Part shown: positions 2,941 through 53,149 of the stretch, piece after piece
Position numbering within the stretch: the stretch's first letter is position 1
Layout of the letters: every line of letters starts with the position of its first letter
Notes under the pieces: model-generated
What the model saw: the letters and a program-made list of their open reading frames with translations, nothing else
Database searches by the model: none
What the model was told of the DNA's origin: nothing
Position numbers and translations under genes: made by a program
Assembly (NCBI GenBank): GCA_963718875.1
Contig: OY970378.1
Location: 132,396-196,395, forward strand
From: Candidatus Parcubacteria bacterium
GTDB lineage: Bacteria > Patescibacteriota > Saccharimonadia > UBA4664 > JBIOIQ01
DNA: 64,000 nt
Reading direction: 5' to 3'

Positions 2941-3882
2941 TTTTCCTGTCTCCAATTGATTAATTAAGTCAGCTTGGTGGAGGGCAGCAGCGGTGTTTTG
3001 CTGTCTTAGGTAAACTTCGCGCAGTAGCTTGTGGCTCTCTAGGTTGGCGGGGTCGGTTTGAGCTGCTTTAGCTAAGGCTGTTTCGGCTTCTTTAAGTTTG
3101 GGTGGGTCGTTGGGGGCCAAAATAAGGTTGATTCGGCCTAAAAGGACTTGATCGGGAACCATTAGTTGAGGCTGATTTATTAAAATGGCTCTAGAGCTGC
3201 GTATAAGCCCGCTAGAGTAGAGTTGGTATGCCAGCGCTGGTTTCCCTTGCTTGGCTTGTTTAAGCGTGTGTAGGGCTCGAGGTGAGGTTACAGAGCCTAT
3301 CAAATCGTTCAAACGCACAGTCATGTTGTTAACGGCATAACATAAGCCAAGTTGCACTTGAGCTTCTGGGTTGTGAGTGTCTATGGCTAGGGCAGTTCGA
3401 GCGGCTATTATTGCACTATCCCCTCTCCCCTGTTCTAGCTCAAGCTCGGATTTGGCTATCAGGGCTGCTTGGGATTTATTGGCCTGAAGTACGTCTTCGA
3501 GTACCTTTCCAGCTTGCTTTAGCTGCCCTGATTGACGGTAGATGGTGACAATCTGCATGCCACTCTCCCCTATCGGTAATGTTTTCAGCTCGCGAGCGGC
3601 ATCATTTGGTCGATTAGCCTTAAGGTAGGCGCTGGCTAACAACTGCTTGTAGTTGTGGTTGGCTGGAGCCAGAATAGTAGCTACCTGAAAATCAGCGATG
3701 GCCTGAGTAGTGTCACCCTGACTTAGTCTGGTTTGTGCTTGGGCTACAAGTTTGGCAGCCCGAGCATTAGATATGGGCGTAGCTACAATTATCAGGAGAG
3801 CTATTAGTGCGCTGACTCCGATTATTATGTACCACATATGGGCTTTATTTTTGGGCTTGGCTGATTGCTTGGATTTGCTCAT
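2935..3882 (-). CDS. membrane-anchored tetratricopeptide (TPR) repeat protein
   Basis: 315 aa. N-terminal TM helix WYIIIGVSALIALLIIVA, then repeated A/L/Y-rich TPR-like helices. Confidence 0.6.
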   Translation of the reverse strand: MSKSKQSAKPKNKAHMWYIIIGVSALIALLIIVATPISNARAAKLVAQAQTRLSQGDTTQAIADFQVATILAPANHNYKQLLASAYLKANRPNDAARELKTLPIGESGMQIVTIYRQSGQLKQAGKVLEDVLQANKSQAALIAKSELELEQGRGDSAIIAARTALAIDTHNPEAQVQLGLCYAVNNMTVRLNDLIGSVTSPRALHTLKQAKQGKPALAYQLYSSGLIRSSRAILINQPQLMVPDQVLLGRINLILAPNDPPKLKEAETALAKAAQTDPANLESHKLLREVYLRQQNTAAALHQADLINQLETGKI

Positions 3883-6496
3883 CTAACTTTGATAGTAACA
3901 ATTTGGCCTCGACTTGGCTATCACGAGTTTCTTGAACTACGCTGGCGGGGGCGGAAGAAACGTAACGCTCGTTGGCCAGGCGGGCGTCTAAACTATCTAG
4001 GTAAGCCTGCTTATCTGCCCTCATTTTTGACAACCTGGCTTTTCGGGCACTAATCAACGCATCGTCGGCTTGAATCCATGCTGGAGCGCTACTCCCGAGG
4101 TACAGACCACTCCCCTGCTCCACTAGTTTGATCTCTGTTACCCTTGCAAGATGTTTAATTAAATCTGCGTATTGAACCAGTTTTGGCTCAGTTGTGAGGA
4201 TGGTGGGCCTATCTAGCTTTTCTTCCGTTGCAATGGCTCTGATTTGGAGGGTTGTTTCTTGAATACGGTTAAAATCTTCAACTAAGCTTATATTAGCCGA
4301 ATTGTTAGAATCCGATTCCGGCCAAGGGCTAACAATCAGATCTGCTTTTTGCCACGGCATATTTTGCCAAATGGCCTCTGTTACGAAAGGCGCGGTGGGA
4401 TGAAGCAGTTTTAAAACTGTCTCTAACCCGTAAACTAAGAGGTCGTGATTAGGTGAAATCTTGGATGCCTCAACATACCAGTCGGCAAAATCGTCCCAAA
4501 GCAGAGCGTAAACCATCTGGCCGGCTTCGGAAAAGCGGTAGCTATCGATTGCTTTGGTAACATTCTGGACTGCTTGGTCGAGTTGGTATTTGATCCAGTG
4601 GTCGGCTGGGGCGTTGAGCTGTGGTTCGGCAGGTGTGTAATCGGCTGGCAGTTTGGCCAAGATGAACCTGGCAACATTCCATAGTTTGTTACAAAAATTG
4701 CGGTAGCCTTCAATTTTTTCTTTTCCGAGTGAGCCATTATTCCCGGGTGTAATCCCAATGGTTAGTGCTAAACGAAGAGCATCGGTGCCGTATGTGGCGG
4801 TGTATTCCAGAGGATTAATAACGTTTCCTTTAGATTTACTCATTTTTTTACCTTGTGCATCGTTGACCATGCCCCATAGGTAGACGGTTTTAAAGGGAGG
4901 CAGTTTAAAGCGATAATAACTAAACATCACCATCCGGCTCACCCATAAAAATATAATGTCGCGAGCAGTAGCCATTACGCTGGTGGGGTAAAACTGCTCA
5001 AAATCACCGGTGGCCATGAGGGTAGCGTAAGGCCATTGACCGCTAGAAAACCAAGTATCGAAGGTATCGGTTTCGGTCTCGTAATTATTTTTGCCATAGT
5101 AATCAATGGCTTCATCCTCATTGAAGGCAATGATGTAGGGTTTTTTGGTGGTATCAGAAGAGGCATTGTAATAGATGGGGATAGTTATTCCAAACCAGTT
5201 TTGGCGGCTAATGTTCCAATCGCGTAGGTTTTCCATCCAATCCAAGTAGACTTTTTCGTAACGCTTGGGGACTATTTTGATCTCACCATCCTTAACGGCC
5301 TTGATGGCTGGCTGTTTGAGTTCGGCCACCTTAAGCCACCACTGCTCAGTAACTAGTGGCTCTATTAGGGTGCCACAGCGGTCGTGAAAGGAAACGCTAT
5401 GCTTGTAATCCATTTCAACATGGTCAATTAACCCCCTTTCCTCAAGGTCATGGGCAACTTGCTCTCTAGCTTCGGCTACAGGCATGCCGGCGTATTTACC
5501 TGTTAGGTTGGTTAGCAGTCCGTCTGTCCCAATGGCTTGTTTGACCTCCAGGTCGTGACGTAACCCCATTTCCCAGTCGTTGGGGTCATGTGCAGGAGTA
5601 ACCTTAACTACACCTGTACCAAAGGCTGGGTCAACAAAGTCGTCTGCAATAACCTTGAGCTTGAATTTTCCAAGCAGGCCTTCGGCTTCAATCTCTTGGC
5701 CAATATACTGCGTGTAGCGCTCGTCCTTGGGGTTTACAGCAATGGCGGTATCACCAAATTTTGTTTCAGGCCGGACAGTAGCAAGTATAAACGGGCCGTA
5801 TTTGATGTAATATAACGGGTCAATTTGCTCACGATACTTGATTTCTAGGTCGCTAAAGCCGGAGCGGCAATGAGGGCACCAGTTAACTATGCGATTGCCG
5901 CGGTAAATTAAGCCATCATCGTGCATTTGCTTGAAGGTTTCATAGACGGTACGGACGATGTCGTCGTCCAAGGTGAACTTAAAACGGCTCCAATCGACGC
6001 TAAAGCCCAGGCTGCGGAGTTGAGCTGTTACATTGGCCATGTTCTTTTTTGTAAAAGCTAAGGCACTTTGATAAAACTGCTCACGACCGAGGTCAAATCG
6101 ACTTTTACCCTCTTTGGCCAGCTCGCGCTCGTAGACCACTTGAGTTTCGATACCAGCGTGGTCAGCTCCAGGGAGCCACAAGGTTGGATCCCCTTTCATG
6201 CGGTGGTATCTAGCCATAATGTCCTCGACCACATACATAACGTGGCCAGTGTGCAGGTCGCCGTTGGCATTAGGCGGTGGCATGATTACACTAAACGGCT
6301 CTCGATCAGGTATTGAGTTGTGAGTTGTGAGTTGTGAGTCATTTGTGCTTATCTCTCGACTCGCTTGAACTGAGCCTGTCGAATGGTCGACTCTTGACTC
6401 TTGACTCGAGGTGGGCTTGAAGGCGCCAGAATCTTCCCACATTTTATAAATGTCGGCCTCGTATTTGGCCGGTTCGTAACTTTTTGGTAACTCCAT
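3845..6496 (-). CDS. valS: valine--tRNA ligase (ValRS)
   Basis: 883 aa. HIGH motif (PPPNANGDLHTGH), KMSKS motif (KMSKSKGN), class I aaRS editing and anticodon-binding regions, C-terminal coiled coil. The N-terminus carries an extra ~30-aa low-complexity insert encoded by a tandem-heptamer palindromic segment (6300-6420). Confidence 0.92.
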   Translation of the reverse strand: MELPKSYEPAKYEADIYKMWEDSGAFKPTSSQESRVDHSTGSVQASREISTNDSQLTTHNSIPDREPFSVIMPPPNANGDLHTGHVMYVVEDIMARYHRMKGDPTLWLPGADHAGIETQVVYERELAKEGKSRFDLGREQFYQSALAFTKKNMANVTAQLRSLGFSVDWSRFKFTLDDDIVRTVYETFKQMHDDGLIYRGNRIVNWCPHCRSGFSDLEIKYREQIDPLYYIKYGPFILATVRPETKFGDTAIAVNPKDERYTQYIGQEIEAEGLLGKFKLKVIADDFVDPAFGTGVVKVTPAHDPNDWEMGLRHDLEVKQAIGTDGLLTNLTGKYAGMPVAEAREQVAHDLEERGLIDHVEMDYKHSVSFHDRCGTLIEPLVTEQWWLKVAELKQPAIKAVKDGEIKIVPKRYEKVYLDWMENLRDWNISRQNWFGITIPIYYNASSDTTKKPYIIAFNEDEAIDYYGKNNYETETDTFDTWFSSGQWPYATLMATGDFEQFYPTSVMATARDIIFLWVSRMVMFSYYRFKLPPFKTVYLWGMVNDAQGKKMSKSKGNVINPLEYTATYGTDALRLALTIGITPGNNGSLGKEKIEGYRNFCNKLWNVARFILAKLPADYTPAEPQLNAPADHWIKYQLDQAVQNVTKAIDSYRFSEAGQMVYALLWDDFADWYVEASKISPNHDLLVYGLETVLKLLHPTAPFVTEAIWQNMPWQKADLIVSPWPESDSNNSANISLVEDFNRIQETTLQIRAIATEEKLDRPTILTTEPKLVQYADLIKHLARVTEIKLVEQGSGLYLGSSAPAWIQADDALISARKARLSKMRADKQAYLDSLDARLANERYVSSAPASVVQETRDSQVEAKLLLSKLDEQIQAISQAQK

Positions 6497-6588
6497 AGTC
6501 AGTTAAGTATAGCTAAGTAAGGCCTTAGGCTGCAAATGAACGCAAGCTAATTTTCATTTGATCAAGTTTAAGCCTCCATTGCCTACTT

Positions 6589-6630
6589 GTCATCCTGAAC
6601 CGTCAGCTGATGGTTGTTTCAGGATCTCTT
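6589..6630 (-). repeat. REP/RPE-like palindromic element (family 1, AGATCC-hairpin-GGATGAC)
   Basis: GTCATCCTGAAC...GTTTCAGGATCTCTT is the reverse complement of AAGAGATCCTGAAAC...GTTCAGGATGAC. Matches copies at 26768, 32790, 36929 and others. Confidence 0.6.
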
Positions 6631-6654
6631 AAACTAATTTTTTACATGTTCAAC

Positions 6655-6790
6655 AGATCCAAAAGCGCAGTTATGTTTCAAAATGCTGAAAGCGTTTTTT
6701 CTGCGTGAAAACATAAGCGTTATGCAAATTGGCTAACTTTTAATCTTTGAATTTTGGAACTTTTTGCTTGTGAACTAATTTGATGGTTGG
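6655..6790 (+). repeat. direct repeat copy 1 (about 110 bp, terminator-like hairpin AAACGCT-CAA-AGCGTTT plus CATAA-GCG-TTATG)
   Basis: About 85% identical to 7141-7270 (shared ...GTGAAAACATAAGCGTTATGCAAAYTGGCTAA...). Confidence 0.6.
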
Positions 6791-7140: not shown

Positions 7141-7270
7141 CAACAGATTTAAAATAGCCATTATGTTTTAAAACGCTCAAAGCGTTTTTTTAGTGTGAAA
7201 ACATAAGCGTTATGCAAACTGGCTAAATTATAATCATTGAGTTTTGTAAGTTTTGTTTGTTGACCTGATC
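7141..7270 (+). repeat. direct repeat copy 2 (partner of 6655-6790)
   Basis: See copy 1. Together they bracket an about 350-bp segment containing a K-type REP (6829-6857) and an 18-bp inverted repeat (6861-6879 / 6977-6995). Confidence 0.6.
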
Positions 7271-7544
7271 TAAGGTTTCAACCAGCATTTTTTGTAACTT
7301 CAAGACCTGGTCTTGACTAACGCGTTTAAAACTTGGGTCAGGCCTCAGGCCCGCCCGCGGGGGTCGTGGACCCCTACGGACGGACACTGAGGGTTTCTCA
7401 CCGAGCGCAGTAGAGCCACGTTCGGCAAGATTGGAGCCCGCAGGCCCTGGTTCGGAAGATGGGGGTTCCTTGCCTGGGCCTGCGGGGGAATTGCCGGTCG
7501 AGTCACGCATAGTGTGTACCCGCCGGCAAGATGGTTGCGCCGGA

Positions 7545-8219: not shown

Positions 8220-9401
8220 CTAGTCCCTTATTGAATGCGAGTGCATTTGCATGCTCGAGTCAGCCACCAGGAGCTTAGGGTCGGTAGTCATGCCATCGTG
8301 TGCATACCAGTAACCCAGCGCGGCGATCATGGCGGCGTTATCCGTGCAGAGGTTCATAGCGGCATAATTAATTTCTATAGGTAAACGCTTTTTGAGCTCG
8401 GTGCGTAAGGCTTGGCTGGCCGCCACGCCACCAGCAATGACAACAGATTTAGGGCTGTGTCGCTCGTAGGCCACCATCATGCGGTCAACCAGGGTGTCGA
8501 TGACAGTTTTTTGAAATGAAGCAGCCACGTCGTTTTTTTGCTGATCGTTTAAAAGGGGAGCGAGGGTGTGGGAGGCAGCAGTTTGGTCGAGACCGAGCAT
8601 GGTTTGAACTTGACGCAACACGGCGGTTTTAACTCCGCTAAAGCTGTAATCTAGACTATCTTTACCAAGCTTGGCTTTGGGGAAAGTAAAAGCATTGGGG
8701 TCGCCATTTAAGGCAGCTTTTTCTAGCGCCGGTCCACCTGGAAATCCTAGCCCGAGTAATTTAGCAATTTTGTCGAACGCTTCGCCAGCGGCGTCGTCGC
8801 GAGTTTGACCTAAAACTTGGTAGTTGTGGTGGCCATGGAACAGAACGATTTGCGAGTGTCCGCCAGATACAATCATAGCTAGCAGTGGGAAGTCGGGCGG
8901 CTGCCATTCGGATTTAACATTTAACATTTGACCTTTGATGTGTGACGAGTCTAAGAAGTTTGCATAAACGTGGGCTTCTACATGGTTGATGGCATAAAGT
9001 GGTTTGTGGTGGAGCTCGGCCAGGGTTCGTGCTGTCAATGTTCCGATTAAGAGTGACCCGAGTAATCCCGGTCCGGCTGTGACGGCAATTCCGTCAATTT
9101 GATCCCACAGAGTGTTGTCATTCCTGCGAAGGCGGGGATCTAGATCGCTGGATCCTCGATCCGGAGCGCTATGGCTTCCGGTCAAGGATGACAATTGGGG
9201 GAAAGCCTGCTCGAAGGCTTTTTCTACCACGGGAAGCATAGCCTCAATGTGGCTACGGGCGGCAATTTCGGGTACGACACCTCCAAATTGCGCGTGAATG
9301 TCAATTTGCGAAGCCACAATGTTGGATAAAATGTGGCGCCCATCTTTTACGACAGCGGCAGCGGTTTCGTCACAACTGGTTTCAATCCCAAGGATATTCA
9401 T
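8220..9401 (-). CDS. tsaD: tRNA N6-adenosine threonylcarbamoyltransferase TsaD (Kae1/Gcp family)
   Basis: MNILGIETSCDETAAAVV N-terminus, AVTAGPGLLGSLLIG, HVEAH metal-binding motif. Contains an extra ~27-aa insert (PQLSSLTGSHSAPDRGSSDLDPRLRRNDNT) not present in typical TsaD. Confidence 0.9.
   Translation of the reverse strand: MNILGIETSCDETAAAVVKDGRHILSNIVASQIDIHAQFGGVVPEIAARSHIEAMLPVVEKAFEQAFPQLSSLTGSHSAPDRGSSDLDPRLRRNDNTLWDQIDGIAVTAGPGLLGSLLIGTLTARTLAELHHKPLYAINHVEAHVYANFLDSSHIKGQMLNVKSEWQPPDFPLLAMIVSGGHSQIVLFHGHHNYQVLGQTRDDAAGEAFDKIAKLLGLGFPGGPALEKAALNGDPNAFTFPKAKLGKDSLDYSFSGVKTAVLRQVQTMLGLDQTAASHTLAPLLNDQQKNDVAASFQKTVIDTLVDRMMVAYERHSPKSVVIAGGVAASQALRTELKKRLPIEINYAAMNLCTDNAAMIAALGYWYAHDGMTTDPKLLVADSSMQMHSHSIRD
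9124..9184 (+). repeat. REP/RPE-like element inserted in frame inside tsaD
   Basis: GGATCC-TCGATCCGGAGCGCTATGGCTTCCGGTCAA-GGATGACAA matches the intergenic family-1 elements (for example 50672-50736, 32843-32873). It coincides with the TsaD insert. Confidence 0.6.
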
Positions 9402-23089: not shown

Positions 23090-23290
23090 TTGCGATGCTC
23101 GCTCAACGTACCATTAAGTACGTCTCGCTGTGCTTCTCGCCTCGCCTAGTACTGCATCCAAAATACCAACCCTTGGGGGATTGGATGACTGTGCGAAGTT
23201 TTGCCGTAGGTTTAGATACGGCTCACTCCGGCCTTCAATATCTCCTTGTACTGCATCAAAGTACACCTTTCTTGAAGCTTGCCGTACCAT
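23090..23290. repeat. post-gene repeat R1 (CAACGTACC-ATTAA-GTACGTCTC and GTACTGCATCCAA palindromic modules)
   Basis: Diverged copy of the segment found after rpoD (49480-49600). Confidence 0.5.
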
Positions 23291-23338
23291 TTATTGCCTG
23301 AGCCTGTCGAAGGCCCTTCGACTATGCTCAGGGAGTAA
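23291..23338. repeat. family-2 palindromic element (ATTGCCTGAGC-CTGTCGAAGGCC-CTTCGAC-TATG-CTCAGG)
   Basis: Full palindrome. Half-copies at 36884-36910, 37027-37054, 53104-53131, 55067-55145. Confidence 0.55.
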
Positions 23339-23443
23339 TCGCAAAACACAAAAAGAGGCCACTCGTGGCCTCTTTTTGTGTGCTGATCATAAAGTTGTGA
23401 TGGAGGGCCGCCTGAGTGGCGGCCCTCCATGCGTGGGCGTGGT

Positions 23444-25977: not shown

Positions 25978-26262
25978 GTGGAAGGGCTCAAGTTTTCATT
26001 TATTGAAGATTTTAGCTCTTCCGCAATGCCCGGCGGGAGCGGTTTCGGTCGCATTTCGATCGGATCAGCTACTAGGGCGGTCACGTCAACCATCAGAAAC
26101 GAGGACAGCGTGTTCAAGCGAGTCACCCACAACGAGCCGGCCTTCGAGTTCGACCCCGTGGCGACCTTCTTCGACCCCCACGGCGGCGCCGGCGGGATCA
26201 ACAGGGCCATGGCCGGGATGGCCAACAGCGCGACCAACGCCTTCACCGCGCACTCGGGCTAG
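25978..26262 (+). CDS. small Gly/Ala/Ser-rich hypothetical protein (94 aa, GTG start)
   Basis: ORF followed by long hairpin GGCCAGTGTGCCGCCG...CGGCGGCACACTGGCC. Weak RBS, so model uncertain. Confidence 0.3.
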   Translation: MEGLKFSFIEDFSSSAMPGGSGFGRISIGSATRAVTSTIRNEDSVFKRVTHNEPAFEFDPVATFFDPHGGAGGINRAMAGMANSATNAFTAHSG

Positions 26263-31976: not shown

Positions 31977-32522
31977 TTAGTTTACATAGAGTGTGATTTC
32001 GCTATAAATTCCGGCTTTTACTTCAACCGTAGTAGGTGACCCGGTTGATCCTTGAAGTTCTGCTGTAAAACTGCCTGTACCGGTGCTGACGAGAAAATAA
32101 CCACTTGAGTTAGATTTGACAGCTTGGATGATGCCATTGGGGCCTTTGATGATGACCGTTCCTGCTTGGGTGCGGGGTTGGTTGCAGGAGCTGTTGGGAT
32201 CAGGAGAATAGCAACCAGTAGCCGCACCGGCGTAAATTTGGCCCTTTATCCCAGAACCTCCAAGGGGTGGGGCAGAGTTCAGGTTTTCAGGCGTTGTAGC
32301 GGATTGAGTAGGTGTCGATTGCGGAGACGTTGTTGAGTTAACAGGCTGAGAAATGGATTTTTTCTGCCCGGTTTGAGCTTGATTCGTATTGGACTTGGTT
32401 TTTTCTTTGGATTTGGCCTGCTGGACTTGAGTCAATACAATGCCGGTTGTAACAAGCAGAGCGGCCAGAATCCCCAGCTCCATTATAACAAGACTGCCGC
32501 GTTGATAATTTGGCTTAACCAT
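31977..32522 (-). CDS. prepilin-type N-terminal domain protein (pilin/pseudopilin-like)
   Basis: N-terminus QRGSLVIMELGILAALLVTTGIVL (class III signal-like) followed by a Ser/Thr/Gln-rich low-complexity region and beta domain. Confidence 0.55.
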   Translation of the reverse strand: MVKPNYQRGSLVIMELGILAALLVTTGIVLTQVQQAKSKEKTKSNTNQAQTGQKKSISQPVNSTTSPQSTPTQSATTPENLNSAPPLGGSGIKGQIYAGAATGCYSPDPNSSCNQPRTQAGTVIIKGPNGIIQAVKSNSSGYFLVSTGTGSFTAELQGSTGSPTTVEVKAGIYSEITLYVN

Positions 32523-32564
32523 GAGCTTAATATAAATGTTTACTTATAAGGTGTCAAAGCTTGC

Positions 32565-32584
32565 TAGAGGTTAAACCTCTGGAT
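32565..32584. repeat. family-3 palindrome CTAGAGGTTAAACCTCTGGA
   Basis: Copies at 37846-37864, 43171-43206 (1.5 copies), 61628-61648. Confidence 0.6.
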
Positions 32585-32674
32585 TATAGGCATGATAATC
32601 GAAAGTCCTCAGATAGCTGAGGCCATGCGAGAGTTGTTCCGGCTGGCGCAGCTGGGGGGAGAGGCTCTGCTTTA

Positions 32675-32765
32675 CAAGTAAAGGGAGCCTCCCTTTTAGT
32701 GGTTATGTTAGCATTTCGAGCTCATTTCTTAAGTTAGGGAGCCTCCCTCGAATTTGTTATGCTCC
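32675..32765. repeat. paired palindromic motif element (2x GGGAGCCTCCC), second locus
   Basis: Same arrangement as 2845-2940. Marks the left boundary of the GC-rich cassette array. Confidence 0.55.
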
Positions 32766-32789
32766 GACCCAAGGCTTCAAACTCCACGT

Positions 32790-32873
32790 TGTCACCCTGA
32801 ACCGTCGGCTGACGGTTGTTTCAGGATCTCTTAATCTGGACAAGAGATCCCGGATCGTGGTCCGGGATGACAA
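32790..32873. repeat. inverted pair of family-1 REP/RPE-like elements
   Basis: Reverse copy GTCACCCTGAAC...TCAGGATCTCTT, then forward copy AGAGATCCCGGATCGTGGTCCGGGATGACAA. Confidence 0.6.
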
Positions 32874-32937
32874 GAAGAAGGTTGAAAACTTAGGTCGGGC
32901 CCCGCACCAGCCTTGGTAGACTTGGTGCGGGACGGGG

Positions 32938-33384
32938 TTAGGACGGGTCGGATTCGGGTGCCGGAGGGCGCTTGGCGAGCTCGATTTCGAGCTCGGCGAC
33001 ACATCTTTCGTGGTCTTTAACAACCTCCATGAGTAGCTCAGCTTTTTCCTGATAACGCTGGGCCTCGGCCGCGATGCGCATGTAAAGCGTTTCGATGGTG
33101 CAGTCTTTGGGGAACTGGTCGAACCCTGCGTCAAGGAGTGCGATGAAAGCATCGATAGCCTTTTTGGCTGCTTTGTACTCATGCTTGTAAAACCAACCGG
33201 GCCAGTCGGGATCGGCCTCGCAGTAGGGAACCATGAACTCCTGGAGCAGCTGAGCGTAGGGTCGAATGACGCTCCATGGCTCATTCCACGGATTGTAGAA
33301 CTGGGTGATCCTCTCCAGTGTCCACATTCCGTCTCTGATTCTTTTGAGGACGTCTCGCAGTGCCTGGGTGGGGTGAATGGTCAT
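32938..33384 (-). CDS. cassette-array paralog A1 (hypothetical, C-terminal coiled coil and Pro-rich tail)
   Basis: 148 aa, N-terminal MTIHPTQALRDVL. Shares N-terminal and C-terminal (ELEIELAKRPP...DPS) features with 33395-33811, 35444-35989 and 36119-36628. Confidence 0.6.
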   Translation of the reverse strand: MTIHPTQALRDVLKRIRDGMWTLERITQFYNPWNEPWSVIRPYAQLLQEFMVPYCEADPDWPGWFYKHEYKAAKKAIDAFIALLDAGFDQFPKDCTIETLYMRIAAEAQRYQEKAELLMEVVKDHERCVAELEIELAKRPPAPESDPS

Positions 33385-33394
33385 GGGATCTGTT

Positions 33395-33811
33395 TCAGTT
33401 GGAGTGCGAAGGGGGCGAGGAAGGACGCTTTTTGAGCTCGGTTTCGAGTCCTTTGATGCGGGCGTCCAGTTCTTTAACCTGTGACGCGAGGGACTCAGAC
33501 CAGTTTTTGTAACGGATCCTTTCGCCGGCGATTCTCATGTAGAGATCACCGATGGTAGTACCACTTGGGAGCCGATCGAATCCGGCATCTATTAACTCGA
33601 TGAAGGCGTCAAGTGCCTGTGTGAAAGTGGGCGAGTAAGGAAGTTCATGGTGCTCGCCAAGGAAAGCTTTGATGAGCTCCTGGTAGGGTGAAAACACGCT
33701 GTCGGTTGCCATGCCACCGCCTTGCATTACTGCGGCATATGCGCTACGAGAGTTTGCGTCTCTGGCTGCGACGAGCGCGTCGCGAAGTGCTTGGGTTGGG
33801 GTTAGCGTCAC
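33395..33811 (-). CDS. cassette-array paralog A2
   Basis: 138 aa, MTLTPTQALRDAL... Shares DAFIELIDAGFD...LYMRIAGE block with A1. GTG start with AAAGGAT RBS. Confidence 0.6.
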   Translation of the reverse strand: MTLTPTQALRDALVAARDANSRSAYAAVMQGGGMATDSVFSPYQELIKAFLGEHHELPYSPTFTQALDAFIELIDAGFDRLPSGTTIGDLYMRIAGERIRYKNWSESLASQVKELDARIKGLETELKKRPSSPPSHSN

Positions 33812-33978
33812 GGGTTATCTATCCTTTGGGTTGTGGATCGTGTACACGGGTTGCATCGTTGCTTCCCGACCTAAGGTTTCAAAGCTCTTTTTAAGACCTG
33901 ATCTTCGATAGTTGAAAGCTTGGGTCGGGGTTCCGCCGTGCGCTGGTTAGGGCGCAGGCAGCGGAACCTGTGGATGGG

Positions 33979-34383
33979 CTATACCGGGTGGATCTTGTGC
34001 ATACTGCACTTGAAGATGTCGATCATGGGGAACTCGGCCTGAGGGTGTTCCGCCTCGAGGTAAACTACGCCGGCCAGGTCGGAAGTCAGGTTGAGGCCGG
34101 TGGAGCTGGTAATGAAGTCACTTACCAAGTCGATGGCCATGCTGTCGTCCTGGTCCAGCTCGTACTTGCTGACGCCGAACTTGGCGGCGATCTTGCCGTG
34201 GTCGAGCTCGAACTGCTCGGTGTTGGTGTCGCGGTCGTAGTCGTTGCGAGAGCAGAGCCAGGCGCTGCGGACTCGGACGATGGCTTTGACTTGGACGCCT
34301 TGCTCTTCTCTGAGCTCGCGCTTGACGAGCGTGAGCTGCTTGGCACTGACCTTGCCGATCACCACTAGCGTGGTGGCTGCCAT
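33979..34383 (-). CDS. cassette-array gene B (hypothetical, 134 aa)
   Basis: Own conserved leader with AAAGGAAGA RBS. Flanked by the TTAGGTCGGG/CCCGACCTAAG inverted-repeat boundary elements. Confidence 0.5.
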   Translation of the reverse strand: MAATTLVVIGKVSAKQLTLVKRELREEQGVQVKAIVRVRSAWLCSRNDYDRDTNTEQFELDHGKIAAKFGVSKYELDQDDSMAIDLVSDFITSSTGLNLTSDLAGVVYLEAEHPQAEFPMIDIFKCSMHKIHPV

Positions 34384-34548
34384 GATGTTCTTCCTTTGAT
34401 CGTCGGTACACGGGTAAGCACTGTTGCTTCCCGACCCAAGACTTCAATCTTATTTACACGGGTGGAACCGATGTAGGATTTGAAAACTTAGGTCGGGGTT
34501 CCGCCGCTGTAGCCGGAGCTACAAACGGCGGAACCTGGGAATGGGTGG

Positions 34549-35226
34549 TTAGCTGGATACGCCTTCGGGTGCTGATCCCTCAACGGGTGCATCCTCGAAG
34601 GGATATGCCAAGACTCGAGCGACTTCACTCTCCAAGGTCTCGGTGCTGAAGCCCACCAGGGCACGGTCTAGGGCTTGGCTACGAAGCTTGACCTCAAGTG
34701 CCTTGAGGCGCTCCGGGATCCCGCTGCTTTGCCAGTCCCGGTAGAGGTGTTGAGCGCAGAGCATCTCCATATGGTAGTGGCTTGCAACTGCCGAGCGGAA
34801 GCCATCGGTGCCTACAGGGCTGTTGGGGTAGTTGCCGAAAATGGCGATGATGAGCTCACCGTCCTCGCCGAAGACGGCGAGAGAGAACTCGTCATCGATG
34901 TCGTAGCCAGCACCGTGACGGAATGGGAAGCCGAAGCTGTCACGACCAGGATCCGGCTGCTTGATCTCGTAGTGGAACACGATACCCATCTCGATGCGTA
35001 GCAGCTCGCCGCCCTTGTTTCGAAGGTGGCGGGTGACCACTTTGCCGCTGACAATGAAATCGAGCGTGTTGCCGAGCTTGACGAGCTCATAGGTGGTGCC
35101 ATTGATGTCGGCTGAGTAAATATCCCTCAACACTTCCTCAATGAGGTGGTGCTCAGGGCTGTGGTGGTGAATCGATCGGTAGCCAACTGCTTGGGGGTGA
35201 GCGTGGGCGGGTCGGGTGTAGGCCAT
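34549..35226 (-). CDS. cassette-array gene C (hypothetical, 225 aa)
   Basis: Conserved leader ...CCGAAAAAGGATGG-N7-ATG. Same boundary elements. Confidence 0.5.
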   Translation of the reverse strand: MAYTRPAHAHPQAVGYRSIHHHSPEHHLIEEVLRDIYSADINGTTYELVKLGNTLDFIVSGKVVTRHLRNKGGELLRIEMGIVFHYEIKQPDPGRDSFGFPFRHGAGYDIDDEFSLAVFGEDGELIIAIFGNYPNSPVGTDGFRSAVASHYHMEMLCAQHLYRDWQSSGIPERLKALEVKLRSQALDRALVGFSTETLESEVARVLAYPFEDAPVEGSAPEGVSS

Positions 35227-35349
35227 TGAAAACCATCCTTTTTCGGTTGTCGATCGGGTACACGGGTAAGCACTATTGCTTCCCGACCTAAGACTTCAAA
35301 ACTCTTTGTTGTCACCTTGTACTTGATTCAGGGTCTCTTAATCTGGACA

Positions 35350-35380
35350 AGAGATCCCGGATCGTGGTCCGGGATGACAA
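35350..35380 (+). repeat. family-1 REP/RPE-like element (AGAGATCCCGGATCGTGGTCCGGGATGACAA)
   Basis: Identical to 32843-32873. Preceded by a degenerate reverse copy. Confidence 0.6.
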
Positions 35381-35443
35381 TTTAGGGTTGAAAACTTAGG
35401 TCGGGCCCCGCATCAGCCTTGGAAGACTTGATGCGGGACGGGG

Positions 35444-35989
35444 TTAGGACGGGTTCGGCTTGGATACCGGAGGACGGGTGGCGAGTTCGGCTTCGAGCTC
35501 GGCGATGCGGGCGTTGAGGTCGTCGTTCTGCTGGCAAACCTTGCGGTGCTCGCGAGCGAGGTTGTCGAGTTGGCTGTACCGCTCTTGGAGTGAGATGACA
35601 AGGGAGTCGTGGTCTAGACGTACTGTCGCGAGCTTGGCCTCGAGCTTGGCGACGGTCTCCCTCGTGATGGCGAGCCAGTACTCTGCCTTGAAACGGTATC
35701 CTGCAGCCCACATCAGCCTGTTGTCGATGGGGTTGGTAGGGGAAAGCTCGTCGGCTCCTGAGTTTACCAACCAGATGATGCTGTTGATGGCCGCGATGTT
35801 GCGAGCTTGGGTTCCCGCGAAGTCTACCTGGGCAGCATCGATGAAGGTACGGAAGTGGCCACTGACTGTGCTGAAGATGCTGTGGTTACCCGGGTTGCCA
35901 ATTATCTGCTCAATGTTGGACTCTTGGGGGTCGGAGTCCCTGAGCGCCTTGAGGGCGTCGATGAGGGCCTGGGTAGGGTTGATTGCCAT
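35444..35989 (-). CDS. cassette-array paralog A3
   Basis: Start at internal Met (MAINPTQALIDALKALRD) with AAAAAGGACGG RBS. C-terminus ARIAELEAELATRPPVSKPNPS. Confidence 0.6.
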   Translation of the reverse strand: MAINPTQALIDALKALRDSDPQESNIEQIIGNPGNHSIFSTVSGHFRTFIDAAQVDFAGTQARNIAAINSIIWLVNSGADELSPTNPIDNRLMWAAGYRFKAEYWLAITRETVAKLEAKLATVRLDHDSLVISLQERYSQLDNLAREHRKVCQQNDDLNARIAELEAELATRPPVSKPNPS

Positions 35990-36118
35990 GGTGGCCGTCC
36001 TTTTTGGGTTGTCGGGTACACGGGTAAGCACTGTTGCTTCCCGACCTAGGGCTTCAAACGAGGTTGAAAACTTAGGTCGGGCCCCGCACCAGCTGGGTAG
36101 GCAAGGTGCGGGACGGGG

Positions 36119-36628
36119 TTAGGACGGGTCGGGTTCGGGTGAGTAAGGCTCCTGCAGAGCTGCGACTTTGGCTTCGAGTTCGGCGACGAGGAGCTTCATT
36201 TGATGACCCTCATGCCTGAGAACCTGGTTCTCGTTGCGCTCTTCCCTCAGGTGGTCTAGGTTCTCGCGGATGACCTGTCGGGCTTGGTAGAGCTCGCCGC
36301 CAACCTTCATAGCGAAGTCAGCAACCTGAGAGCCGTCAGGGAGTACCGTCAAGCCGGCCCAGATGAGCTCGAACAGGTGGTTGATGACAGCCTTGCACTG
36401 CGTGTACAGGATGTCCCTCCTGGTTTGCGAGTTCATGCCCTCGAGGTTATCCAGGATCCCACATGCCTTCCTGAACGGCAGGATGAGTTGAGCGACCTCG
36501 TAGAACATGTGGTAGGGGTCGGTGGTGGTAAGGAGCTGAACTGCTTCGGCGACGTCCAGGGTGCCGGTGTTGGCGCCAATGCGCATTTCTTCCAGCTTGG
36601 CCATCAGAGTTACGGTGGGGTTGAGCAT
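36119..36628 (-). CDS. cassette-array paralog A4 (promoter-proximal)
   Basis: 169 aa. C-terminus LVAELEAKVAALQEPYSPEPDPS. AAAGGACGAATACC-ATG leader. Confidence 0.6.
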   Translation of the reverse strand: MLNPTVTLMAKLEEMRIGANTGTLDVAEAVQLLTTTDPYHMFYEVAQLILPFRKACGILDNLEGMNSQTRRDILYTQCKAVINHLFELIWAGLTVLPDGSQVADFAMKVGGELYQARQVIRENLDHLREERNENQVLRHEGHQMKLLVAELEAKVAALQEPYSPEPDPS

Positions 36629-36699
36629 GGTATTCGTCCTTTGGGTTGTGTAGGTGCGAATGTGTCTGATTGGGCTGTTCCCAACTCAGTGCGGACAAG

Positions 36700-36790
36700 T
36701 CTATACTATTTATGCTTAAATGTCAATATAATGTAGGTAAAATGTAATATCTACAGATAGATATTTGTCAAAATGAGAATTGACAAATAC
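36700..36790 (-). promoter_or_regulatory. AT-rich promoter region of the cassette array (TTGACA boxes on minus strand)
   Basis: Reverse complement contains TTGACAAATATCTATCTGTAGATATTACAT and TTGACATTTAAGCATAAATAGTATAGAC. It is the only AT-rich stretch in the array. Confidence 0.35.
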
Positions 36791-36928
36791 AATTTAGCCA
36801 AGTAATCTATGGTTAGCCTCTCTTTCGTCGAACTATAGGAGGCACGGCGCTTTTATCGTTCGAGGTAATCCGAGAGACTCACTGAGGCCTTCGACTACGT
36901 TCAGGCAATGAGCCAGAGAATTTGGTTA

Positions 36929-36986
36929 AGAGTTCCTGAAAGGTAGAAGCGTCCCGCAAGGGCGGGACTTTCTCTTCAGGATGACA
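36929..36986 (+). repeat. family-1 REP/RPE-like element with nested hairpin (GTCCCGC-AAG-GGCGGGAC)
   Basis: AGTTCCTGAAAG...TCTTCAGGATGACAA. Confidence 0.55.
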
Positions 36987-37064
36987 ATGAGGGTTTGTTG
37001 TTCAAAGAGGGAGGACGAAGACTAACCGGGCCTTCGACTCTGCTCAGGCAATAAGGGAGAAAGA

Positions 37065-37844
37065 ATGACAGAAGAACAGCTTCAACAACTAGGATTATCA
37101 CCTACACAAGCTAAGGCGTACCTTTTACTAGTGCTGACGGGTAAGCTGACGCCGGCGGATTTGATGGCTAAGACGGGGGATAGCCGAACCAATGCTTACA
37201 TGGTGCTGGACAGATTAGTTGAGCTGGGGCTGGCGATTAAAGATGAGGTGGGCAAAAAGCTGATTTATCGCTCAAACAGCCCCGTTGGACTGGCCAAGAT
37301 TGCGGAGCGTCAAAGGGAGAAGGCCACCCAAACGGAAGGCAAGATTCGCGATGCCATGCCTGAGCTGGTTAAGTTTTACCATTCTCACCGAACTCAACCC
37401 GGAGTGCGGTTTTTACAAGGGAAAGAGGGGCTACAACAGGTTTATAAAGACCATCTTAAGACCGGTGGAGACGAGGTAATTTTTAGAACTAAGGCGGATA
37501 ACGAGTATTATGGTCAAGGGTTACTGACGTACATGGAGGAGCGGGCAGCAAAGGGAATTAAGACCGATATGATTTCACCCTGGCAGAGGGATATGGTTAA
37601 GTATGCTCCGGTGGAAAACGTGCGGTTAAAACGTGATGTGACTTTTGTACCGCCTGAGGCCTACGATGTGCCTGTGGAGATTGCGGTATATGGTACTAGG
37701 GTTGCGATTACCTCCTTTGGTGAGGAGGCGATTGCAACGATTATTGACAGCCCCCAGGTGGCGGATGCGGTAAGACAAGTATTTGCCATGGCTAAGGCAG
37801 GGGCGGATAAGCTTTGGGTTGAGGCCGGCGGCTTGCCCGAGTAA
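37065..37844 (+). CDS. TrmB-family transcriptional regulator
   Basis: N-terminal winged HTH (LGLSPTQAKAYLLLVLTGKLTPADLMAKTGDSRTNAYMVLDRLVELGL) plus C-terminal TrmB-like domain. Paralog at 53755. Confidence 0.7.
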   Translation: MTEEQLQQLGLSPTQAKAYLLLVLTGKLTPADLMAKTGDSRTNAYMVLDRLVELGLAIKDEVGKKLIYRSNSPVGLAKIAERQREKATQTEGKIRDAMPELVKFYHSHRTQPGVRFLQGKEGLQQVYKDHLKTGGDEVIFRTKADNEYYGQGLLTYMEERAAKGIKTDMISPWQRDMVKYAPVENVRLKRDVTFVPPEAYDVPVEIAVYGTRVAITSFGEEAIATIIDSPQVADAVRQVFAMAKAGADKLWVEAGGLPE

Positions 37845-46230: not shown

Positions 46231-46278
46231 AATAAGTCAAATTTGCGTAATCGTGAATCTAGTCTATTTTCTTTTCTG

Positions 46279-46327
46279 GGTCCCCGATCCGGAGCGGTTG
46301 AGTACAACCTTCCGATCGAGGATGACG
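46279..46327 (+). repeat. family-1 REP/RPE-like element
   Basis: CCCCGATCCGGAGCGGTTGAGTACAACCTTCCGATCGAGGATGACGA. Confidence 0.5.
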
Positions 46328-46444
46328 ATGAGGCTGTTCAGGTTAATGTTATGACAAGTCGGACTTCTCACCGGAAAAGAAGTCCGACTTGTATTGACTT
46401 TTCGGTTTTTGTTTGGTATGCAAGATTAGGGGTATAATACTGCT

Positions 46445-50503: not shown

Positions 50504-50671
50504 GTGCTCCTATCGAGGAGGGTCGGGAACCCGACCAGGTGCAGGCCGACTTGGCCATGGATAAAGTTTGATACTAAATCATGTATTTGTCAATAAAAGC
50601 CTACCTGTCGTATGTTTTTTGGGCCTTTCACTTCGCTCGGAGCGTTGAAAGGGGTCGAAAAAATCAAGATA

Positions 50672-50736
50672 AGAGATCCCGGATCCGGAGCGCCAAGCTA
50701 TGCAATGGTTCGGCTTGGCTTCCGGTCCGGGATGAC
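50672..50736 (+). repeat. family-1 REP/RPE-like element with nested hairpin
   Basis: AAGAGATCCCGGA-TCCGGAGCGCCAAGC...GCTTGGCTTCCGG-TCCGGGATGACG. Closest relative of the copies embedded in tsaD and polA. Confidence 0.65.
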
Positions 50737-50745
50737 GTTTTTTTA

Positions 50746-52331: not shown

Positions 52332-53114
52332 ATGATAGTAGTTGGCCTCACCGGCGGAATGGGGCAGGGTAAAAGCACAGTTGGGCAGATGCTGCGCGAG
52401 CTTGCGAAAGTGGATTATAAGGCTGACCTAGAGTCATCGTATCCCATTACGACGGTGGCCAATCAGTGGCTATCGACGTGGCCGCAGTCGTTGGTGCTTG
52501 CTGCCAATGAGACGCAGATACAGCTGGCAAACCGGCTAATTGAAAGCCTACCACCCATTATCGAGGAAGTTACTGGTAAATCTACAACAGCCAAAGTTTT
52601 ACAAATTAATGAAGCTGATTCTGCGAATGTGACTTTGCATAAGCGTTTACTTGATTACATAGGTCAATGGCTAGAAGAATCCGAGGGTGAACGTCATGAC
52701 CGGCTACCGCTGCCGATTGTGCCACAAAATAAGGCTCTACATAGGGCGCTGTTTCAGTGGTTGGGTGGGATGGCGATTGAACTGATTTATCGCCCAATTT
52801 GGAGCGACTTGCTTGATAAACGGATAAAACAACTAGCTGAGAGGGATTATAAGTTGGTGACGGTTGGTGGAATCCGCTATGACCATGATGCGGACATGAT
52901 TCAGGCTAACAAGGGGGTTATTTTAAAAGTTATGCGGCCGCATTCTGCTCATAGTAGTGATGTGACGGAGACCTCCATGAGTGAAGTTGAGGCTGATATT
53001 GTGCTGCATAATGATGGGACGCTGGCGCAGTTAGAATGGGTTGTGCGGCAGCTATGGCAGGATTTGCAAGTGGGGAAACCACAGGCAGAGTATCGGGCTA
53101 GTCTTATTGCCTGA
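52332..53114 (+). CDS. P-loop kinase, dephospho-CoA kinase-like
   Basis: VGLTGGMGQGKSTV resembles the CoaE GLTGGIGSGKST motif. Confidence 0.55.
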   Translation: MIVVGLTGGMGQGKSTVGQMLRELAKVDYKADLESSYPITTVANQWLSTWPQSLVLAANETQIQLANRLIESLPPIIEEVTGKSTTAKVLQINEADSANVTLHKRLLDYIGQWLEESEGERHDRLPLPIVPQNKALHRALFQWLGGMAIELIYRPIWSDLLDKRIKQLAERDYKLVTVGGIRYDHDADMIQANKGVILKVMRPHSAHSSDVTETSMSEVEADIVLHNDGTLAQLEWVVRQLWQDLQVGKPQAEYRASLIA

Positions 53115-53149
53115 GCGGAGTCGAAGGCTCCTTTTATTAACATCTGGAT

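What the first reader, a model, noticed from the sequence alone, without database searches (positions are those of the whole stretch)
6300..6420. valS N-terminal in-frame insertion built from tandem heptamers with inverted symmetry
(GTGAGTT)x3.5 on one side and (GACTCTT)x2-GACTCGAG on the other form an imperfect inverted repeat. The core between them (CTGAGCCTGTCGAATGGTCGAC) resembles the family-2 palindrome CCTGAGCCTGTCGAAGGCC. It adds about 30 low-complexity residues (SSQESRVDHSTGSVQASREISTNDSQLTTHNSIPDRE) between the conserved FKP and FSVIMPPPNANG blocks of ValRS.
Basis: seen in the sequence. Interest (0 to 1): 0.55.

Follow-up and report, generated by a model that had tools for sequence, protein, structure and literature searches.

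The report
Repeat-DNA insert inside valS gene
A 93-base piece of repetitive DNA sits in frame inside the essential valyl-tRNA synthetase gene of a Saccharibacterium (TM7) and adds a floppy 31-residue surface loop; other small repeat elements occupy the same spot and other housekeeping genes across the phylum, much like the palindromic elements known from Rickettsia.

Summary
valS (3845-6496, minus strand) carries a 31-codon in-frame insertion (6311-6403) in the loop between GAFKP and PFSVIMPPPNANG. That loop is 7 residues long in 90 of 120 Saccharibacteria orthologues, including the nearest one. The peptide has no homologue in 1.84 billion representative proteins, and AlphaFold predicts it as the only long disordered stretch of the enzyme. 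At DNA level it is a composite of repeat DNA. Two perfect heptad arrays, (GAGTCAA)n and (ACTCACA)n, occur in the same order and orientation as an intergenic hairpin element in acidobacterial metagenome contigs. A nested 24-nt piece carries the core motif of a palindromic repeat family that has six arms at five intergenic sites in this window. In the same window, tsaD carries an in-frame copy of a second palindromic family. In other TM7 genomes, further element families sit in frame in ValRS (same loop and two other sites), TsaD and ExoIII. Best reading: tolerated selfish or repetitive DNA in a permissive loop, working like Rickettsia palindromic elements, and not a conserved functional extension. 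How it inserted is unknown, and slippage variation could not be tested. This is a new variant of a known kind, of moderate interest.

The parts
3845..6496 (-). valS (valyl-tRNA synthetase), 883 aa, the host gene
   Evidence: ORF and translation. 8000 ValRS hits, the best named Ca. Saccharimonadia valine--tRNA ligase. PDB 1GAX ValRS aligns from residue 64.
6311..6403 (-). 31-codon (93-nt) in-frame insertion QESRVDHSTGSVQASREISTNDSQLTTHNSI. The boundaries are ambiguous by a few bases.
   Evidence: The loop is 7 aa in 90/120 orthologues and 38 aa here. DNA alignment with L011. Coordinates. AlphaFold pLDDT <50 for residues 31-63 only.
6387..6407 (-). 5' heptad array in the mRNA sense, GAGTCAA GAGTCAA GAGTCGA (on the + strand: GACTCTT x2.7)
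   Evidence: TRF, 100% matches. The same heptad array is present in L088-L093.
6363..6386 (-). Nested 24-nt segment CCATTCGACAGGCTCAGTTCAAGC, which carries the family-2 palindrome core (14-mer at 6370-6383) and interrupts the GAGTC heptads
   Evidence: MAFFT opens a 24-column gap in all five acidobacterial copies exactly here. The 14/14 match is to 23298-23311. Motif statistics.
6353..6362 (-). Continuation of the GAGTC heptads after the nested piece (GAGTCGAGAG)
   Evidence: Alignment A5; coordinates.
6340..6352 (-). 13-nt spacer ATAAGCACAAATG. It corresponds in position to the G+C-rich loop of the acidobacterial copies but is not similar in sequence.
6314..6339 (-). 3' heptad array in the mRNA sense, (ACTCACA) x3.7 (on the + strand: TGAGTTG x3.7)
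   Evidence: TRF, 100% matches, score 52. The same heptad is present in L088-L093.
23290..23340 (+). Reference copy of the family-2 palindrome (TTATTGCCTGAGCCTGTCGAAGGCC / CTTCGACTATGCTCAGGGAG), intergenic. Other arms lie at 36886-36911, 37029-37055, 53103-53130 and 55063-55145.
   Evidence: (family D10).
9117..9203 (-). Supporting case in the same window: a 29-aa in-frame insertion in tsaD that is a copy of the palindromic family TTGTCAYCC...GGATGACAA
   Evidence: (D15/D16).

Best explanation
The segment is repetitive DNA that became part of the valS reading frame and is tolerated there. It is a composite. The outer part is a paired-heptad element, (GAGTCRA)n - spacer - (ACTCACA)n. Nested inside it is a 24-nt fragment of the genome's own family-2 palindromic repeat. 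It lies in the loop between the N-terminal helix and the first Rossmann-fold strand that leads to the HIGH-type motif. That loop is short in nearly all relatives and is predicted here to be disordered, so the enzyme most likely works with an extra floppy 31-residue loop. The insert survives for three reasons: its length is a multiple of three, it lies in the only orientation in which both heptad arrays lack stop codons, and the site is permissive. It works like the Rickettsia palindromic elements, as selfish or repeat DNA colonising coding sequence, and has no function of its own. Shown: the insertion, its absence from relatives, its repeat composition, its relatives at DNA level, the predicted disorder, and parallel in-frame repeat insertions in tsaD here and in ValRS, TsaD and ExoIII of other TM7. 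Inferred: that the heptad part arrived as a pre-formed element and did not grow in situ, that the family-2 piece was inserted second, and that the insert is neutral.
For: Insertion and lineage specificity. Orphan peptide: phmmer against 1.84e9 representatives gave one hit, a repetitive C2H2 zinc-finger protein that I judge a low-complexity artefact. Disorder: the model has mean pLDDT 88, and the only long stretch below 50 is residues 31-63. Heptad pair: a scan of JGI metagenomes with both arrays as pattern gave 6 contigs with the same order, orientation and heptads. My estimate of the chance expectation is about 0.01-0.1, assuming about 1e12 bases or fewer. One of the contigs is from Thermoanaerobaculia. 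Both sites whose flanking ORFs were examined lie between genes: prmC-murA, and between two genes read as glycosyltransferases (by inspection only, no family search), where the element overlaps the 3' end of the upstream ORF. The best copy folds with z = -4.9. Nested family-2 core: 14/14 identity, and the motif occurs 7 times in the window against 0.17 expected, with only 5 hits in 1.41 Mb of other CPR loci. Orientation filter: the antisense of GAGTCAA and of ACTCACA has stops in all three frames, and the sense has none. The same process elsewhere: a tsaD in-frame copy of a multi-copy palindromic family in this window; the same family in frame in ValRS of another TM7; a third element family in frame in ValRS (two sites), TsaD and ExoIII of other TM7. 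Hotspot: 11 of 120 orthologues carry inserts of 12 aa or more in this loop, scattered over the tree.
Against: No second copy of the heptad element exists in the 64-kb window or in 1.4 Mb of other TM7/CPR loci, so multi-copy status in this genome is unproven. The rest of the 1.19-Mb genome could not be read. No target-site duplication or clean element boundary is visible, and the left array overlaps an ancestral AGT codon, which would also fit in-situ slippage. The acidobacterial matches were found with a pattern taken from the insert itself, and the spacers are not homologous. Folding of this copy is not significant. Neutrality is inferred only from non-conservation and predicted disorder.
Confidence: 0.65

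Rival explanations
1. In-situ loop expansion: replication slippage and short local duplications in a permissive loop built the heptad arrays de novo, with no element arriving from elsewhere.
For: Heptanucleotide repeats are reported as the commonest class of 5-11-nt repeats in most bacterial genomes and are ascribed to polymerase slippage (PMC4679880). Both arrays are 100% perfect. The left array starts in the ancestral Ser codon. An internal direct repeat CTTATCTCTCGACTCG / CTTGACTCTTGACTCG exists. A third heptad array lies in another expanded loop of tsaD (8912-8929). No other copy was found in the window.
Against: The same two heptads, in the same order and orientation, form an element in Acidobacteriota. 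The core carries a 14/14 match to a dispersed repeat family. Single-unit slippage of a heptad shifts the frame of an essential gene, so stepwise growth is strongly constrained.
Confidence: 0.2
2. Functional lineage-specific ValRS appendage: the Ser/Thr/Gln-rich loop was recruited for a new interaction (tRNA, partner protein, host contact) and is kept by selection.
For: The reading frame is intact in an essential gene. Many aminoacyl-tRNA synthetases carry idiosyncratic appended segments (established knowledge). The site is used repeatedly across TM7.
Against: There is no protein-level homologue anywhere. It is absent from the closest orthologues. It is predicted disordered with pLDDT about 30. 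Its sequence is explained by repeat DNA. Inserts at the same site in other lineages are unrelated in sequence.
Confidence: 0.06
3. Contingency locus: the heptad arrays act as slippage-prone tracts that switch valS on and off or alter its N-terminus (phase variation or a programmed frameshift).
For: There are two perfect tandem arrays whose unit is not a multiple of three, 50 nt apart, near the 5' end of the gene. In principle a shift in one could be compensated in the other.
Against: valS is single-copy and essential, and the arrays are short (2.7 and 3.7 units). The other two frames on the sense strand of the insert contain stops. No length variants are available.
Confidence: 0.03
4. Assembly or sequencing artefact: the segment is a chimeric or misassembled piece and is not part of the real gene.
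For: Repeat-rich segments are prone to misassembly. Only one genome carries it: the protein cluster has 2 members from 1 contig.
Against: It is exactly 93 nt, stop-free and in frame, flanked by colinear valS codons. The contig is 1.19 Mb. A second in-frame repeat insertion in tsaD and analogous cases in independent assemblies show that the phenomenon is biological.
Confidence: 0.03

Closest known systems
Rickettsia palindromic elements (RPEs): 'selfish DNA in protein-coding genes' (reviewed in PMC10969869)
   Same: Both are small (about 100-150 bp) hairpin-type repeat DNA found in frame inside unrelated housekeeping genes of a small-genome bacterium. Both add a peptide compatible with the fold of the host protein. 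Several families exist, with intergenic as well as intragenic copies.
   Different: The phylum is different (Saccharibacteria) and there is no sequence relation. The valS insert is a composite of heptad arrays plus a nested palindrome fragment, not a copy of one conserved element. It encodes no conserved peptide, and only one copy was seen in the DNA available.
Bacterial heptanucleotide tandem-repeat elements: cyanobacterial STRR repeats (from memory: Mazel et al. 1990); TAACTGA repeats of Beggiatoaceae and cyanobacteria (PMC4679880); four-heptad elements of Geobacter metallireducens found between and within genes (PMC2700814)
   Same: All have perfect tandem heptads of 2-6 units and a scattered phylogenetic distribution that suggests horizontal spread. 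All are mostly intergenic, with occasional intragenic copies.
   Different: Here two different heptads are paired in opposite orientation around a spacer, giving a hairpin. The heptad sequences differ from those described. The copy lies in an essential gene and is translated.
REP/REPIN and MITE-type palindromic repeats (PMC3116915; PMC10969869)
   Same: The family-2 and TTGTCAYCC...GGATGACAA families of this window are short, dispersed, hairpin-forming and mostly intergenic. Nesting of one repeat inside another is typical of such DNA.
   Different: No RAYT or IS transposase, terminal inverted repeats with target-site duplication, or doublet organisation was demonstrated here.
Very small mobile repeats nested in other repeats in Nostoc (SDRs; Elhai et al. 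2008, cited from memory and from reference 43 of PMC3116915; the paper itself could not be read)
   Same: A piece of about 24 nt from a dispersed repeat is nested within another repeat.
   Different: No sequence relation was tested, and the details are recalled, not checked.

Membership tests
Rickettsia palindromic elements (RPE) | Located in frame within a protein-coding gene without disrupting it | tested here: met
   93 nt, no stop, flanked by conserved ValRS blocks.
Rickettsia palindromic elements (RPE) | Member of a multi-copy family within the same genome | tested here: inconclusive
   Only the nested 24-nt core has relatives in the window (six arms of family-2). The heptad part is single-copy in 64 kb.
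Rickettsia palindromic elements (RPE) | Sequence homology to RPE families, and a conserved encoded peptide | tested here: not met
   The peptide has no homologue in 1.84e9 proteins. The organism is a Saccharibacterium. So it works like an RPE but is not a member.
MITE | Terminal inverted repeats | tested here: inconclusive
   The two heptad arrays are in inverted orientation, but only 10 of 13 bases are complementary. Related copies pair well.
MITE | Target-site duplication flanking the element | tested here: not met
   No convincing direct repeat lies at the borders. TCGAG occurs on both sides, but that would imply a 4-residue ancestral loop, shorter than any orthologue.
Heptanucleotide tandem repeats (STRR-like) | At least 2 head-to-tail copies of a 7-nt unit | tested here: met
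   3.7 and 2.7 perfect copies.
Paired-heptad hairpin element (defined here from L088-L093) | (GAGTCRA)n, then a spacer, then (ACTCACA)n on the same strand | tested here: met
   Alignment A5. The pattern used for retrieval came from the insert, so only the regions outside the 25 fixed bases are independent evidence. There the heptads continue identically in all copies.
Paired-heptad hairpin element (defined here from L088-L093) | Stable hairpin between the two arrays | tested here: inconclusive
   L091 z = -4.9. L089 and L088 are weak. The valS copy gives z -1.2 and -1.85.
Family-2 palindrome of this genome (TTATTGCCTGAGC-N3-4-TCGAAGGCC and its complement) | Core CTGAGC-N3-4-TCGAAGG | tested here: met
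   CTGAGC-CTG-TCGAAtGG, a 14/14 match to the arm at 23298.
Family-2 palindrome of this genome (TTATTGCCTGAGC-N3-4-TCGAAGGCC and its complement) | Complete hairpin with outer TTATTGCC / GGCAATAA ends | tested here: not met
   Only one arm plus a 5-bp remnant hairpin (GTCGA ATGG TCGAC) is present. It is a fragment, not a full copy.
Conserved idiosyncratic ValRS extension | Present and similar in related ValRS | tested here: not met

The most novel reading that the evidence does not exclude
Saccharibacteria as a phylum may host an undescribed RPE-like phenomenon. At least three families of hairpin mini-elements repeatedly colonise the same permissive loops of essential enzymes (ValRS, TsaD, ExoIII) in frame. 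The families are the TTGTCAYCC...GGATGACAA family, the 'QGDxEQ..EAHxDVRR' family with a covarying CG-YAC/GTR-CG stem, and the paired-heptad element. The ValRS N-terminal loop was hit independently in many lineages. The heptad element is shared with Acidobacteriota, which would imply cross-phylum spread or a common, still unknown, generating activity. If the recurrence reflects targeting and not just tolerance, there is an insertion mechanism to discover.
Probability: 0.35. Interest if true: 0.7.

Novelty: new variant of a known kind. Interest (0 to 1): 0.5.

Why it matters
It shows that small repeat DNA can become part of an essential, highly conserved enzyme in a reduced-genome episymbiont, a group not known for this. 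The same loops are hit again and again across the phylum. This gives a natural map of permissive sites in ValRS, TsaD and ExoIII. It also provides a source of orphan disordered segments in CPR proteins, which complicate annotation and phylogenomics. A set of element families (heptad hairpin, QGD element, TTGTCAYCC family) is now available whose mobility mechanism can be searched for. The finding does not change what is known about ValRS function.

Tried and rejected
(1) A word-indexed protein search with the insert peptide and with a profile of the foreign QGD element returned nothing, not even the self protein. These are uninformative, not negative. Searches were rejected for parameter limits.
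(2) The look-up of the window's own ValRS in the contig index failed, so the rest of the genome could not be fetched.
(3) Rfam found only four tRNAs in the window at gathering score. At E<=1 it found nothing credible on the acidobacterial elements, only miRNA-type hairpin noise.
(4) Two scans of viral contigs for the heptad pair found nothing.
(5) I considered that the heptad arrays are an operator or centromere for a ribbon-helix-helix protein (omega or ParG type, recalled from memory). I dropped the idea because the acidobacterial copies lie between housekeeping or glycosyltransferase genes with no partition or regulator gene nearby, and because the copy here is inside a coding sequence.
(6) I considered an intein, intron or translational bypass. 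I rejected these because the segment is 93 nt, open in frame, and lacks the size or motifs they need.
(7) A 13-mer match of the insert to 26112-26124 lies in an ordinary ORF and is taken as chance. So is ACTCACAACCCA at 3378.
(8) The paper by Elhai et al. 2008 could not be opened.
Full report
**1. What is at the coordinates.**
The ORF 3845-6496 on the minus strand encodes an 883-aa valyl-tRNA synthetase. Its N-terminus reads ...WEDSGAFKP-TSSQESRVDHSTGSVQASREISTNDSQLTTHNSIPDRE-PFSVIMPPPNANGDLHTGH.
- Tandem Repeats Finder reports two perfect period-7 arrays inside the flagged segment: 6314-6339 (TGAGTTG x3.7) and 6389-6407 (GACTCTT x2.7).
- In the whole 64-kb window only one further period-7 array passes the same threshold.
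- The 14-mer CTGAGCCTGTCGAA at 6370-6383 recurs exactly at 23298-23311, in one arm of a hairpin palindrome.
- The inverted repeat between the two arrays is weak in this copy: 13 nt at 77% complementarity.
- Neither strand folds better than dinucleotide shuffles as RNA or DNA (z from -1.07 to -1.85).

**2. It is a lineage-specific insertion.**
The gene belongs to a Saccharibacterium (TM7). The best hits are named Candidatus Saccharimonadia/Saccharimonadales valine--tRNA ligase, and the source contig is 1.19 Mb.
- In 120 orthologues the loop between GAFKP and PF[ST]IIMPPPNANG is 7 residues in 90 cases, 5-8 in 104, and 38 here.
- The closest relatives lack the insertion: P0002 (70% identity; FKPSDDPKAKPF) and L011 (71%; FKPSDGPKAEPF).
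- If TSS...PDRE is the ancestral 7-residue loop, the insertion is QESRVDHSTGSVQASREISTNDSQLTTHNSI. That is 93 nt at window 6311-6403, with boundaries uncertain by a few bases.
- A full HMMER scan of the peptide against 1.84 billion representative proteins gave a single hit. It is a repetitive protein with C2H2 zinc fingers, matched in five low-complexity stretches, and I regard it as spurious.

**3. Where it sits in the protein.**
An AlphaFold2 model built on 50 orthologues has mean pLDDT 88 and pTM 0.80.
- The only long segment below pLDDT 50 is residues 31-63, which is the insert. It has no secondary structure and lies between helix 9-23 and strand 68-71.
- The solved Thermus thermophilus ValRS (1GAX) aligns from residue 64 onward, with its residues 22-31 forming the short equivalent loop.

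That the insert is a tolerated surface loop is an inference from these predictions, not a measurement.

**4. What the DNA is made of: the heptad pair.**
In the mRNA sense the insert reads:
GAGTCAA GAGTCAA GAGTCGA | CCATTCGACAGGCTCAGTTCAAGC | GAGTCGAGAG | ATAAGCACAAATG | ACTCACA ACTCACA ACTCACA ACTCA.
- I scanned the JGI metagenome contigs with AGAGTCAAGAGTC-N30-60-ACTCACAACTCA and obtained six contigs of 59-66% G+C, so not TM7.
- All six show (GAGTCRA)x3-5, a G+C-rich spacer of about 20 nt ending ..GGTGCCTGA, then (ACTCACA)x2-5.
- Under a uniform random model, and assuming at most about 1e12 bases (my estimate; the size of the collection is not given), 0.01-0.1 such matches are expected.
- One contig (L091, identical over the element to L093) belongs to Thermoanaerobaculia (Acidobacteriota), judged from a release factor 1 cluster.
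- The element lies between prmC and murA in L091. In L088 it lies between two ORFs that I read as glycosyltransferase genes by inspection only, with no family search, and it overlaps the 3' end of the upstream one.
- The L091 copy folds into a long hairpin on the (GUUGUGA)n...(GACUCUY)n strand at -40.2 kcal/mol, z = -4.9. Other copies fold less well.
- The retrieval pattern came from the insert, so the independent evidence is that the heptads continue identically beyond the 25 fixed bases, in the same order and orientation, in all copies.

I conclude that the heptad pair is a recurrent element type, akin to the heptanucleotide repeat elements described in cyanobacteria, Beggiatoaceae and Geobacter. 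The Geobacter elements also occur within genes (PMC4679880; PMC2700814).

**5. What the DNA is made of: the nested palindrome fragment.**
In the alignment with the acidobacterial copies, MAFFT opens one 24-column gap in all of them. It corresponds exactly to CCATTCGACAGGCTCAGTTCAAGC (6363-6386), after which the GAGTC heptads resume.
- This 24-nt piece holds the 14-mer shared with the family-2 palindrome.
- Family-2 reads TTATTGCCTGAGC-N3-4-TCGAAGGCC and its complement. It has six arms at five intergenic sites in the window: 23290-23340 (a full hairpin), 36886, 37029, 53103 and 55063-55145.
- The motif CTGA[GA]C-N3-4-TCGAA occurs seven times in the window: those six arms plus the valS insert. 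Markov-shuffled windows give 0.17 hits per 64 kb, so about 2.5e-4 are expected within 93 nt.
- The motif occurs only five times in 1.41 Mb of other TM7/CPR loci, about the chance level.
- I shortened the motif after seeing the insert, so the probability is somewhat optimistic, but the conclusion stands: the core derives from a repeat family specific to this genome.
- It is a fragment, consisting of one arm plus a 5-bp remnant hairpin, not a full copy.

**6. Why it is open in frame.**
- The sense orientation of GAGTCAA, GAGTCGA and ACTCACA arrays has no stop in any frame. The antisense of GAGTCAA and of ACTCACA has stops in all three frames.
- Of the three sense frames of the whole insert, only the one in use is open.
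- The nested piece is 24 nt and the whole insert is 93 nt.

This is what a selective filter on random insertion into an essential gene would leave.

**7. The same process elsewhere in the window.**
tsaD (8220-9401, minus) carries a 29-aa insertion (...EQA-FPQLSSLTGSHSAPDRGSSDLDPRLRRNDNTL-WD...) that is absent from three TM7 orthologues.
- Its DNA (about 9117-9203) is a copy of a dispersed palindromic family with ends TTGTCAYCC / GGATGACAA and core GATCCGGAGCG...CTTCCGGTC.
- That family has intergenic copies at 46270-46330, 50660-50740, 32790-32875 and 35300-35382, and a partial copy at 6587-6635, 90 nt upstream of the valS start.

This is a clear RPE-like case 2.7 kb from the valS insert. It supports the general mechanism.

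**8. The ValRS loop is a hotspot across the phylum.**
- Eleven of 120 orthologues have inserts of 12 aa or more in this loop. The next most used region, around residues 618-624, has five.
- On a neighbour-joining tree built without the insert columns, the carriers are scattered, each with sisters that have the 7-residue loop. The tree is rough, but at least six separate clades are involved.
- Most foreign inserts start EGNxHLR, and several contain QGDxEQRxEAHxDVRR..DDAEMR.
- The same element occurs in frame at a second ValRS site (L087, 82.7% DNA identity over 52 nt to the N-loop copy of L002), twice in tandem in TsaD (L018), and in ExoIII (L001, L084).
- Between L001 and L002 the element core is 89% identical, against 78% for the gene as a whole.
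- Its DNA alignment shows a compensatory CAC/GTG to TAC/GTA change in a small stem (by eye; not tested statistically).
- The TTGTCAYCC...GGATGACAA family also sits in frame in ValRS of another TM7 (P0118: CHPELDLGSDSIPGQARNDN).
- None of these foreign elements resembles the insert studied here.

**9. Comparison with what is known.**
- Functionally the closest system is the Rickettsia palindromic elements. These are small palindromic repeats found in frame in many housekeeping genes and thought compatible with the fold and function of the host proteins (PMC10969869).
- The present insert works like an RPE but is not a member of that family. There is no sequence relation and no conserved peptide, and multi-copy status is unproven.
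- Structurally the outer part belongs with bacterial heptanucleotide repeat elements.
- Full-text searches found no description of such elements in Saccharibacteria or Patescibacteria in the library held. That is not proof of absence from the literature.

**10. Verdict.**
- The most likely explanation, at about 0.65 confidence, is tolerated repeat DNA in a permissive, disordered loop. It is a paired-heptad element carrying a nested fragment of a local palindromic repeat.
- In-situ slippage is the main rival (0.2). A functional appendage, a contingency locus and an artefact are each unlikely.
- The insertion mechanism is unknown. Slippage variation and genome-wide copy number could not be tested with the data available.
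- Novelty: a new variant of a known kind. Interest is moderate (0.5), and it would be higher if the phylum-wide, multi-family, recurrent-site pattern proves to reflect a targeted mechanism.

Noticed in passing
window 9117-9203 (tsaD, 8220-9401, minus strand): A 29-aa in-frame insertion in TsaD that is a copy of the dispersed palindromic family TTGTCAYCC...GATCCGGAGCG..CTTCCGGTC..GGATGACAA. It is absent from three TM7 TsaD orthologues.
   Followed up: yes
window 8912-8929 (inside tsaD): This is the third and last period-7 tandem array of the window (ATTTAAC x2.6). It lies in a second TsaD loop (..SSHIKGQMLNVKSEWQ..) that is about 9 residues longer than in L087/L084. It is the same loop that carries two tandem QGD elements in L018.
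   Followed up: partly
window 6587-6635, 6651-6788 and 7141-7278: The region just upstream of the valS start is full of repeats. There is a partial copy of the TTGTCATCC family, and a 138-nt segment is duplicated 490 nt away at 78% identity.
   Followed up: no
window 23290-23340, 36886-36911, 37029-37055, 53103-53130, 55063-55145: These are the family-2 palindrome arms, all intergenic. Several are single arms or are split by other sequence (the copy at 55063-55145 has insertions inside it). Their translations give the PFDRLR / LSLSxG-type peptides that I recall from spurious ORFs in many phyla.
   Followed up: partly
window 32500-37100: A repeat-dense stretch with G+C up to 0.58. Modules of 33-120 nt recur 2-4 times at spacings of 565-2507 nt (families D2-D5, D11, D13), with overlapping ORFs on both strands. 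Its nature is unknown.
   Followed up: no
L001 10100-10330; L002 3228-3422; L084 10088-10231; L087 11552-11680; L018 8131-8406; L001 4123-4260; L084 4028-4144: A family of in-frame elements of about 120 nt ('QGDxEQRxEAHxDVRR..DDAEMR') occurs in other TM7 genomes. It is found in ValRS (N-terminal loop and a second site), TsaD (two tandem copies) and ExoIII. The DNA core is more conserved than the host gene, and there appears to be a covarying CG-YAC/GTR-CG stem.
   Followed up: partly
ValRS orthologues P0003, P0007, P0027, P0038, P0045, P0057, P0095, P0097 and locus L009: Inserts at the same ValRS loop begin with a shared EGNxHLR motif, although the carriers are scattered over the ValRS tree. 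This suggests repeated acquisition or recombination of a cassette. Shorter EGNxxLR/IQ loops of 12-14 aa occur in P0041, P0056, P0061 and P0067.
   Followed up: partly
L094 about 4744-4845 (ValRS of P0118); also P0113: The TTGTCATCC...GGAATGACAA element lies in frame (CHPELDLGSDSIPGQARNDN) in ValRS of another Saccharibacterium, near residue 618 in the numbering of the window's ValRS. This region is a second insertion hotspot, with 5 of 120 orthologues carrying inserts.
   Followed up: yes
L001 5859-7980: TsaD in this metagenome contig is called as two separate genes (120 aa and 302 aa) with a 167-aa ORF of unknown family between them. This may be a larger insertion or a disruption of the gene.
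   Followed up: no
L091 1901-1994: A second strong hairpin lies between prfA and prmC in the acidobacterial contig. It scores as miRNA-like noise in Rfam. The contig seems to carry hairpin repeats in successive intergenic gaps.
   Followed up: no
tool behaviour: The word-indexed protein search did not return even the self protein for a 41-aa query, so negative results with short queries carry no weight.
   Followed up: yes
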